NCBI GenBank assembly: GCA_019057385.1
Contig: JAHQJS010000003.1
Coordinates: 64,001-128,000, forward strand
Reading direction: 5' to 3'
Source of the DNA: Candidatus Borrarchaeum weybense
GTDB lineage: Archaea; Asgardarchaeota; Sifarchaeia; Borrarchaeales; Borrarchaeaceae
Length of the DNA: 64,000 bases
In this document: in pieces, positions 50,184 through 50,403 of the stretch
Layout of the letters: each line of letters begins with the position of its first letter
Position numbering within the stretch: position 1 is the stretch's first letter
Translations under genes and position numbers: made by a program
The notes under the pieces: model-generated
The model's input: the letters and a program-made list of their open reading frames with translations, nothing else
Told to the model about the DNA's origin: nothing
Databases searched by the model: none

Positions 50184-50403
50184 GCGGTCGTGGTCTAGCA
50201 AGAGGAATATTCTCCTAGAATGGCCTAGGACAACTAAGAATGAATAACTTTCTTAGATCGCACAGGCCTCCCAAACTGACTTCACAGTCGTGAAGAAAGC
50301 CTGATAAGTTTATGTATCATCAATTATAGATGGTATGCATTTCAGGAGACCCGGGTTCAAAAAATAGGTGATGTTCTCCTATTGGAAACTCCCGGCGGCC
50401 GCA
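50184..50403 (+). tRNA. tRNA-Gly(CCC) with five introns
   Basis: GCGGTCG acceptor / CGGCCGC-A; anticodon arm CAGGC-CTCCCAA-GCCTG after removing a 37/38 intron; four further insertions. Confidence 0.8.

What the first reader, a model, noticed from the sequence alone, without database searches (positions are those of the whole stretch)
50184..50403. tRNA-Gly(CCC) interrupted by five introns
Seen: a 220-nt gene whose exons GCGGTCGTGGTCTAGC / TGGCCTAGGAC / ACAGGCCTCCCA / AGCCTG / AGACCCGGGTTCAAA / TCCCGGCGGCCGCA assemble into a normal cloverleaf. Inserts lie in the D-loop, D/anticodon junction, 37/38, variable region and 59/60 (junctions approximate). The well-known multi-intron archaeal tRNAs (Thermoproteales) have up to three; five would need ordered splicing and would be missed by standard annotation.
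Basis: partly seen in the sequence, partly recalled or inferred. Interest (0 to 1): 0.7.

Follow-up and report, generated by a model that had tools for sequence, protein, structure and literature searches.

The report
Five-intron glycine tRNA gene, Asgard archaeon
This is very probably a working glycine tRNA gene of an Asgard archaeon (Borrarchaeum group) cut into six pieces by five short introns; such heavily interrupted tRNA genes, with up to five introns, have been reported for Asgard archaea since 2024, so it is an extreme example of a known kind.

Summary
All six exon pieces lie in order at 50184-50403. Joined, they give a perfect tRNA-Gly(CCC) cloverleaf, although ARAGORN and Rfam find no tRNA anywhere in the window.

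Modelling the splice motif moves two junctions slightly. The introns are 50201-50220, 50233-50262, 50274-50297, 50306-50348 and 50362-50389, at tRNA positions 17/17a, 26/27, 37/38, 45/46 and 59/60. The mature tRNA is 75 nt.

All five boundaries have bulge-helix-bulge (BHB) spacing. Two have a full 4-bp central helix, two have 3/4 pairs, and one (I2) has only 2/4 pairs between strong flanking helices.

Across three same-genus genomes and three other metagenomes, 33 sites vary in the 145 intron bases and none in the 75 exon bases (Fisher p = 4e-7).

The genome encodes two EndA paralogues, one catalytic-like and one structural-like, plus RtcB. My rough census finds about 2.2 inserts per tRNA gene. 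The neighbouring Ser(CGA) gene also has five.

No RNA data were reachable, so splicing itself is inferred.

Published work already covers this: Valentin-Alvarado 2024, and a 2026 preprint reporting "up to five in a single gene" and 2.12 inserts per gene in Borrarchaeaceae. This scan had already noted four- and five-intron tRNA genes elsewhere in the genome.

Verdict: real, a new member of a known kind. The one added point is that the BHB of the 37/38 intron cannot coexist with those of its two neighbours, which implies refolding or ordered splicing.

The parts
50184..50200 (+). Exon 1, tRNA positions 1-17: acceptor 5' strand, U8, G9, D-stem 5' strand, start of D-loop
   Evidence: Invariant in G001, G002 and G004.
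50201..50220 (+). Intron 1 (20 nt) in the D-loop at 17/17a. Central helix CTAG/CTAG is 4/4 paired; inner helix GAGGA/TTCTC has 5 bp; outer helix is only 1 bp (HBh'-like).
   Evidence: q = 8; a shuffled intron reaches this score with P = 0.0006. The G001 changes fall at the hairpin tip: two in the loop, and A50206G breaks the innermost pair.
50221..50232 (+). Exon 2, positions 17a-26: G18 G19, D-stem 3' strand, A26
   Evidence: Invariant.
50233..50262 (+). Intron 2 (30 nt) at 26/27. Outer helix GGCCT/AGGCC (5 bp) and inner helix CTAAGAA/TTCTTAG (7 bp) have exact BHB spacing, but the central helix AGGA/ATCG pairs at only 2 of 4 positions. This is the weakest motif of the five.
   Evidence: q = 8; shuffled-intron P = 0.039. 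Variation lies in the loop and in the 3' bulge.
50263..50273 (+). Exon 3, positions 27-37: anticodon-stem 5' strand and loop CUCCCA, anticodon CCC
   Evidence: Invariant.
50274..50297 (+). Intron 3 (24 nt) at the canonical 37/38 position. The outer helix is the anticodon stem (5 bp). The central helix CTCC/GAAG is 3/4 paired, with a C.A mismatch.
   Evidence: q = 8; shuffled-intron P = 0.017. Identical in all four genomes.
50298..50305 (+). Exon 4, positions 38-45: A38, anticodon-stem 3' strand GCCTG, A44, T45
   Evidence: Invariant.
50306..50348 (+). Intron 4 (43 nt) at 45/46. The central helix CCTG/CAGG is 4/4 paired and uses the anticodon-stem 3' strand. The interior forms a long hairpin.
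   Evidence: q = 7; shuffled-intron P = 0.012. Most variable intron, with 20 variable sites. Gly tRNA genes of other Asgard families carry an intron at the same place.
50349..50361 (+). Exon 5, positions 46-59: end of variable region, T-stem 5' strand, TTCAAA of the T-loop
   Evidence: Invariant.
50362..50389 (+). Intron 5 (28 nt) at 59/60. The outer helix is the T stem (5 bp). The central helix TTCA/GGAA is 3/4 paired. The inner helix AATAGG/CCTATT has 6 bp.
   Evidence: top-scoring BHB candidate in the gene; q = 9. All six Gly tRNA genes examined, from four Asgard families, have an intron at this position.
50390..50403 (+). Exon 6, positions 60-73: T60, T-stem 3' strand, acceptor 3' strand, discriminator A73. 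TCA follows rather than an encoded CCA, then a T-rich run (ATTTTAT).
50536..50760 (-). Neighbouring 225-nt class II tRNA gene with anticodon CGA and about five introns. It shows that five introns is not unique in this genome.
   Evidence: All seven metagenome variants in it fall inside its predicted introns.

Best explanation
The 220-nt stretch is the tRNA-Gly(CCC) gene of a Borrarchaeaceae (Asgard) archaeon, the only one found. It is probably transcribed as one precursor: the upstream region is AT-rich and an oligo-T run follows the gene. Five short archaeal-type introns then have to be removed, at 17/17a, 26/27, 37/38, 45/46 and 59/60.

Each boundary can fold into a bulge-helix-bulge or a relaxed version of it. 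The genome's two-paralogue, (alpha-beta)2-like EndA endonuclease would cut after the second base of each 3-nt bulge, and RtcB would join the exons. The product is a 75-nt tRNA to which CCA must be added.

The motif for intron 2 uses the 5' strand of the anticodon stem, and the motif for intron 4 uses its 3' strand. The motif for intron 3 needs the anticodon stem itself. The three therefore cannot form at once, so the precursor must refold between cuts, most simply with introns 2 and 4 removed before intron 3.

Shown here: the gene anatomy, the motif geometry, the conservation pattern and the presence of the enzymes. Inferred: transcription, actual splicing and its order.
For: - **Cloverleaf.** Removing the five inserts gives a perfect Gly(CCC) cloverleaf. 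It has G1-C72, C2-G71, G3-C70 and A73, an 11-nt D-loop, a 4-nt variable region and a TTCAAAT T-loop. Its length and layout match the two-intron Gly(CCC) of another Asgard family and a compact Gly(UCC).
- **BHB geometry.** Central/outer/inner pairs are 4/1/5, 2/5/7, 3/5/2, 4/1/2 and 3/5/6. The composite scores are 8, 8, 8, 7 and 9, against genomic null rates of 0.004 (score 8 or more), 0.015 (7 or more) and 0.0008 (9 or more). Shuffling each intron in place gives P = 0.0006-0.039.
- **Independent recovery.** A cloverleaf dynamic programme with BHB-weighted intron costs recovers exactly these boundaries.
- **Conservation.** The same gene is present in three congeners at 100%, 98% and 86% identity over the 220 nt. 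Variable sites number 33 of 145 in introns and 0 of 75 in exons, counting contigs of three other metagenome studies; Fisher p = 3.8e-7.
- **Enzymes.** There are two EndA paralogues, each with N- and C-terminal domains and 29% identical to each other. One is closest to crenarchaeal EndA chains in the PDB. The other has Glu where the aligned catalytic His is expected. RtcB is also present. The (alpha-beta)2 type is the one linked to non-canonical and multiple introns (PMC4090602).
- **Genome context.** About 45 archaeal tRNA genes average about 2.2 inserts each, and most carry a T-loop insert. Removing a BHB-like insert from the rfcS gene 420 nt upstream restores its Walker A motif.
- **Refolding.** In the minimum-energy fold of the precursor each intron forms its own hairpin. 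The helices for introns 2 and 4 form and the anticodon stem does not. The modelled cost of forcing the intron 3 motif falls from 10.8 to about 5-6 kcal/mol once intron 4 is removed.
Against: - No RNA evidence exists for this locus. No RNA run holds it, so neither the mature tRNA nor any intermediate has been seen.
- Intron 2 has only 2 of 4 central pairs, and introns 3 and 5 have 3 of 4. By the strict published criterion (4/4 plus a flanking helix), only introns 1 and 4 qualify, and their outer helix is only 1 bp.
- The 2026 preprint warns that relaxed motifs arise by chance at many boundaries.
- The nearest-neighbour model makes every strict BHB 3.5-12 kcal/mol worse than the ensemble.
- Covariation is thin, with only three distinct sequences.
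- tRNA-Gly(UCC) could in principle read GGG, so the gene need not be essential.
- The junction choices for introns 1 and 4 rest on the BHB rule alone.
Confidence: 0.85

Rival explanations
1. The gene is real, but not all five inserts are EndA introns cut at the predicted sites. Intron 2 in particular (degenerate central helix), or intron 1, might be removed by another route, cut at shifted sites, or kept as an expansion in the mature RNA.
For: Intron 2 pairs at only 2/4 central positions, and introns 3 and 5 at 3/4. Forcing the strict motifs costs 3.5-12 kcal/mol. The preprint calls such stretches 'intervening sequences' and finds canonical BHBs for only 33% of missed D-arm inserts. Intron 5 has an alternative register with 4/4 pairs that would give an 8-nt T-loop.
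Against: Intron 2's strong flanking helices (5 and 7 bp) have exactly the 4+3 spacing on both strands, and the resulting cuts restore A26/C27. A 20-30-nt insert left at 17/17a or 26/27 would disrupt D-arm tertiary contacts (established tRNA structure). Variation avoids the exon side of every junction.
Confidence: 0.09
2. It is a decaying or non-functional tRNA gene that accumulated insertions. GGG codons are read by tRNA-Gly(UCC).
For: Gly(UCC) is present with only two introns. GGG is the rarest Gly codon, at 12.7%. No expression data exist.
Against: There are no changes in 75 exon bases, against 30 changes in the 145 intron bases of a congener whose copy is 86% identical over the 220 nt. BHB geometry is kept in every copy. 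The whole tRNA set of the genome looks like this. No other Gly(CCC) gene was found.
Confidence: 0.04
3. It is a chance assembly of short matches, or an assembly artefact.
For: The shortest exon is only 6-8 nt. A cloverleaf search with a flat intron penalty preferred a different two-insert parse.
Against: The 16-17-nt and 14-nt terminal exons form a 7-bp acceptor stem, and the T arm matches the consensus. The same 220 nt is present in independent assemblies and in contigs from several studies. Exon-only conservation gives p = 4e-7.
Confidence: 0.01

Closest known systems
[quoted passage not shown] 2024, PMC11291895; census of 90 Asgard genomes: Goswami et al. 2026 preprint, 10.64898/2026.10.13.758758)
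   Same: The phylum is the same. Several short non-canonical inserts sit in the D-arm, anticodon loop, variable region and T-arm, and standard tools miss many of them. The preprint reports up to five inserts in one gene and 2.12 per gene for the single Borrarchaeaceae lineage; my rough census gives about 2.2. It also finds two EndA paralogues in most Asgard genomes, as here.
   Different: The 'up to five' figure was reported for the focal families (Freyr-, Jordi- and Atabeyarchaeaceae), not explicitly for Borrarchaeaceae. I could not check whether this particular gene is in their tables, because the supplements are not held. Their census starts from tRNAscan-SE gene calls, and I could not test whether that program detects this gene.
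Multi-intron tRNA genes of Thermoproteales (Sugahara 2007, 2008; Fujishima 2010; reviewed in PMC4090602)
   Same: [quoted passage not shown] They are associated with an (alpha-beta)2-type EndA and removed by endonuclease plus ligase.
   Different: Up to three introns per gene there, against five here. The phylum differs, and this genome is low in G+C (about 37%). Related intron sequences shared between genes were reported there. Here the intron bodies look unrelated apart from their motif-forming ends.
Three-intron nuclear tRNA genes of the red alga Cyanidioschyzon merolae (PMC3728597, PMC9602550)
   Same: [quoted passage not shown]
   Different: That is a eukaryotic nucleus with fewer introns per gene, and some of those genes are also permuted.

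Membership tests
Archaeal BHB (EndA-spliced) tRNA introns | Removing the insert restores a canonical tRNA cloverleaf | tested here: met
   ARAGORN calls tRNA-Gly(CCC) on the spliced 74-nt and 75-nt forms. A dynamic programme recovers the same parse.
Archaeal BHB (EndA-spliced) tRNA introns | [quoted passage not shown] | tested here: inconclusive
   The spacing is exact at all five boundaries. Central pairs are 4/4 (I1, I4), 3/4 (I3, I5) and 2/4 (I2). Flanking helices are 1-7 bp. Composite scores beat the genomic and shuffled nulls, but by the strict criterion only I1 and I4 qualify.
Archaeal BHB (EndA-spliced) tRNA introns | Splicing endonuclease able to cut relaxed or non-canonical motifs, and an RtcB ligase, encoded in the genome | tested here: met
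   Two EndA paralogues lie at G000:C4:663774-664019 and C5:195898-196158, each with PF02778 and PF01974 domains. One resembles crenarchaeal EndA chains in the PDB. The other lacks the aligned His. RtcB lies at C5:145777-147087. Substrate range was not measured.
Archaeal BHB (EndA-spliced) tRNA introns | Spliced mature RNA and excised (often circular) introns observed | not testable with these tools
   No RNA run holds the stretch. The one library labelled metatranscriptomic gave a single unspliced contig over the 3' end and the spacer.
[quoted passage not shown] | The host is an Asgard archaeon whose tRNA set carries about two or more inserts per gene | tested here: met
   The closest public relatives are titled Candidatus Borrarchaeum / Borrarchaeota. 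My census of about 45 genes gives a mean of about 2.2 inserts and a maximum of 5.
Split or permuted tRNA genes | Pieces encoded at separate loci or in permuted order | tested here: not met
   All six exons are collinear within 220 nt on one strand.
Group I / group II introns | Self-splicing ribozyme core of hundreds of nucleotides | tested here: not met
   The inserts are 20-43 nt, and there is no Rfam match.

The most novel reading that the evidence does not exclude
Maturation of this tRNA is an obligatory refolding cascade. Exon 2 (GGCCT) and the 3' end of intron 4 (CAGG) act as decoys that hold the two strands of the anticodon stem apart. This builds the splice motifs of introns 2 and 4. 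Only after those cuts can the anticodon stem form and present the canonical 37/38 intron. Intron removal would then have a fixed order written in the sequence, and the gene would sit at the published maximum of five introns per tRNA gene, in a family where that number has not been reported.
Probability: 0.35. Interest if true: 0.5.

Novelty: new member of a known kind. Interest (0 to 1): 0.35.

Why it matters
- **Annotation.** The gene shows how far tRNA-gene interruption goes in the closest prokaryotic relatives of eukaryotes. ARAGORN and Rfam see none of the five tRNA genes in this window. Automated annotation by such tools would leave this lineage apparently lacking tRNA-Gly(CCC) and much of its tRNA set.
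- **A substrate for experiments.** The gene is compact and carries one strict-like, several relaxed and one degenerate BHB motif. It could be used to test how tolerant Asgard EndA is, and whether multi-intron precursors are spliced in a set order.
- **Limits.** It does not establish a new kind of element. The phenomenon, its scale in Borrarchaeaceae and the figure of five introns are already in the literature.

Tried and rejected
- **ARAGORN and Rfam.** ARAGORN on the window, and Rfam at gathering and at E <= 10, found no tRNA at the locus.
- **Flat-penalty parse.** My first cloverleaf dynamic programme, with a flat intron penalty, preferred a spurious two-insert parse. I replaced it with BHB-weighted costs, so my census is not independent of the motif.
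- **Loose BHB scan.** A loose pair-count scan gives 582 candidates in 220 nt and is not specific by itself.
- **Forced-BHB energies.** These are positive for all five introns. I used them only for the relative effect of removing intron 4 on intron 3.
- **Covariation.** RNAalifold had only three distinct sequences to work with, and two compensatory pairs in the intron 4 hairpin is too little to argue from.
- **RNA evidence.** No RNA holder was listed. Run X20, labelled metatranscriptomic but probably DNA, gave one 251-nt unspliced contig over 50391-50640 from a relative. It says nothing about splicing.
- **Intron-less DNA copy.** No joints were seen in the four runs laid. This shows only that none was seen.
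- **Genome-wide anticodon-arm scan.** A regex for CCC anticodon arms was too permissive (181 hits) to add to the ARAGORN, Rfam and census result.
- **Junction for intron 4.** ATAC versus AGAC in the variable region could not be settled from relatives. Other Gly tRNAs have AAAC, TAAC or CTAC there.
- **Not done.** tRNAscan-SE could not be run, and the preprint's supplementary tables are not held.

Full report
**1. The observation**

The six exon strings occur once each and in order. Joined, they give a 74-nt sequence that ARAGORN calls tRNA-Gly(CCC) with a complete cloverleaf.

On the unspliced window ARAGORN finds no tRNA at all. Rfam finds nothing at gathering threshold, and nothing tRNA-like at E <= 10 around the locus. 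The gene is therefore invisible to these two standard tools.

**2. The organism**

The window is part of a 4.18-Mb, 8-contig, roughly 37% G+C assembly. Its archaeal 16S gene spans 2666 nt for a 1478-position model, so the rRNA gene also appears to carry inserts.

The nearest public relatives of a neighbouring protein are titled Candidatus Borrarchaeum yapensis (90% amino-acid identity) and Candidatus Borrarchaeota. This is an Asgard archaeon of the Borrarchaeaceae.

**3. Exact anatomy**

I applied the archaeal rule: a 4-bp central helix, then a 3-nt bulge on each strand, cut after the second bulge base. This gives the following introns.

| Intron | Window coordinates | tRNA position | Motif |
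|---|---|---|---|
| I1 | 50201-50220 | 17/17a | CTAG[CA\|A]GAGGA...TTCTC CTAG[AA\|T] |
| I2 | 50233-50262 | 26/27 | GGCCT AGGA[CA\|A]CTAAGAA...TTCTTAG ATCG[CA\|C]AGGCC |
| I3 | 50274-50297 | 37/38 | CAGGC CTCC[CA\|A]...GAAG[AA\|A]GCCTG |
| I4 | 50306-50348 | 45/46 | CCTG[AT\|A]...CAGG[AG\|A] |
| I5 | 50362-50389 | 59/60 | CCGGG TTCA[AA\|A]AATAGG...CCTATT GGAA[AC\|T]CCCGG |

- The spliced product is 75 nt and is again a perfect Gly(CCC) cloverleaf.
- The 11-nt D-loop and the 4-nt variable region match the two-intron Gly(CCC) gene of another Asgard family (G031) and a compact Gly(UCC) of G006. Relatives do not settle ATAC against AGAC.
- A cloverleaf dynamic programme that I wrote, with intron costs weighted by BHB quality, returns exactly I1-I4. 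A first version with a flat intron cost did not, so the motif carries real information here.

**4. How good the motifs are**

Central/outer/inner pair counts are 4/1/5, 2/5/7, 3/5/2, 4/1/2 and 3/5/6 for I1 to I5.

- A composite score (central pairs plus up to three pairs from each flanking helix) gives 8, 8, 8, 7 and 9.
- At random genomic places with the same intron lengths, a score of 8 or more occurs at rate 0.004, 7 or more at 0.015, and 9 or more at 0.0008.
- Shuffling each intron in its real exon context gives P = 0.0006, 0.039, 0.017, 0.012 and 0.012.
- By the stricter published criterion (all four central pairs plus a flanking helix), only I1 and I4 qualify. I3 and I5 are relaxed. I2 is degenerate in its central helix, although its two strong flanking helices sit at exactly the right spacing.
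- The nearest-neighbour model makes every strict BHB 3.5-12 kcal/mol worse than the ensemble. I therefore do not claim the motifs are the ground state, only that they can form.

**5. Conservation**

Three same-genus genomes hold the gene at 100%, 98% and 86% identity over the 220 nt.

- There are 1, 5 and 30 differences respectively, and every one lies in an intron.
- Contigs from three other metagenome studies add variants at 50241, 50261, 50313 and 50314, again all intronic. No contig lacks an intron.
- In total, 33 of 145 intron sites vary and 0 of 75 exon sites do (Fisher p = 3.8e-7).
- Of the 33 variable sites, 30 lie in intron interiors, two in 3' bulges and one in a central helix (G001 I4, CAGG to CAGA, leaving 3/4 pairs).
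- Covariation proper is too thin to use, with only three distinct sequences.

**6. Enzymes**

The genome has two EndA paralogues of 208 and 223 aa. Each has the N-terminal and catalytic-domain Pfam families, and they are 29% identical to each other.

- The first is closest to PDB chains 3p1z_B, 3ajv_B and 2cv8_A (E = 1e-39 to 1e-42). From my knowledge of those entries, they are crenarchaeal EndA subunits.
- The second aligns Glu where the first has the His of the Tyr-His-Lys triad (with established knowledge of EndA). It looks like a structural beta-type subunit.
- The (alpha-beta)2 type is the one associated with relaxed motifs and multiple introns (PMC4090602). The 2026 preprint finds two paralogues in 44 of 60 Asgard genomes.
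- RtcB is present.

**7. Genome context**

An anchor scan (acceptor pairing plus T arm) followed by my dynamic programme gives about 45 archaeal tRNA genes of 72-255 nt.

- They carry roughly 0-5 inserts each, with a mean of about 2.2. After in-silico splicing, ARAGORN accepts all but one duplicate candidate.
- The count is rough, and several class II parses are visibly imperfect.
- Two genes reach five inserts: this one and its neighbour on the other strand, a 225-nt class II tRNA with anticodon CGA at 50536-50760. That gene also has about five inserts in all three congeners where the locus was fetched.
- The 253-nt Glu(CUC) gene has four inserts when compared with the compact Glu(UUC) gene.
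- Gly(UCC) has two introns and Gly(GCC) has one.
- No second Gly(CCC) gene was found by ARAGORN, Rfam RF00005 or the census.
- GGG makes up 12.7% of Gly codons in long ORFs.
- The 59/60 intron is present in all six Gly tRNA genes I compared, from four Asgard families. A 45/46 intron is present in two other families. The G031 Gly(CCC) gene has only a D-loop and a T-loop intron. The five positions are thus a stack of individually familiar ones, with 26/27 and 37/38 seen only in the Borrarchaeum copies among the six Gly genes compared.

**8. Mechanism and order**

- I2's outer helix pairs exon 2 (GGCCT, D-loop) with positions 28-32.
- I4's central helix pairs positions 40-43 with the intron's CAGG.
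- I3's motif needs the anticodon stem (27-31 with 39-43) as its outer helix, so it excludes the other two.
- In the minimum-energy fold of the whole precursor, the I2 and I4 helices form and the anticodon stem does not.
- Forcing I3's motif costs 10.8 kcal/mol in the full precursor and about 5-6 once I4 is gone.
- The simplest reading is that I2 and I4 are removed before I3, with I5 (the cheapest motif) free to go at any time and I1 late. This is an inference from folding models only.

**9. Comparison with what is known**

- Valentin-Alvarado et al. 2024 (PMC11291895) reported that 92-95% of tRNA genes in three complete Asgard genomes have introns. Over half have several, many at non-canonical positions.
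- Earlier notes of this scan on the same genome also describe four-intron Leu and Ile genes, the five-intron neighbour and BHB-type introns in mRNAs. I checked one of these myself: removing 49733-49762 from the rfcS gene 420 nt upstream restores an intact Walker A motif, GPPGTGKT.

**10. Verdict**

It is a new member of a known kind, at the top of the published range. The residual novelty lies in the mutually exclusive motifs, the degenerate I2 motif and the fact that common tools miss the gene entirely. What is missing is any RNA evidence.

Noticed in passing
window 22623-22796 (-), 34852-35025 (+), 45638-45774 (-), 50536-50760 (-): Four further tRNA genes lie in the window: two Leu-like class II genes of 174 nt, Pro(CGG) of 137 nt and a Ser(CGA)-like gene of 225 nt. 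ARAGORN and Rfam miss all four. Each carries a 29-30-nt insert in the T-loop and 2-5 inserts in total. The CGA gene has discriminator A73 and about five inserts.
   Followed up: partly
window 49733-49762 (- strand), inside the rfcS gene 48904-49850: A 30-nt hairpin insert with BHB-like boundaries (central 3/4) interrupts the RFC small-subunit ORF. Removing it restores a continuous reading frame with an intact Walker A motif, GPPGTGKT.
   Followed up: partly
G000:C1 (179 kb, outside the window): Contig C1 carries about 14 compact, intron-less tRNA genes in tight clusters and a second, apparently split RtcB match. This is unlike the interrupted tRNA genes on C2-C8. With 7% estimated contamination, it may be a foreign (bacterial or mobile-element) contig.
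   Followed up: no
G000:C5:332567-335232 (locus L001): The archaeal 16S rRNA match spans 2666 nt for a 1478-position model, so the rRNA gene appears to carry about 1.2 kb of inserts.
   Followed up: no
3' flanks of the tRNA genes genome-wide: Roughly two thirds of the archaeal tRNA genes encode CCA after the discriminator. This Gly(CCC) gene, its Ser(CGA) neighbour and a few others have TCA instead, followed by a T-rich run.
   Followed up: no
G000:C5:182206-182460 (-): The 255-nt tRNA-Trp(CCA) gene has a 64-nt insert at the anticodon loop containing GATGA and CTGA motifs. This resembles the box C/D guide RNA known from archaeal tRNA-Trp introns.
   Followed up: no
window 50990-53926 (+): A 978-aa ORF with markedly higher G+C (about 50% against about 37% for the genome) has no Pfam match. 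It is conserved at 74-90% in other Borrarchaeota MAGs.
   Followed up: no
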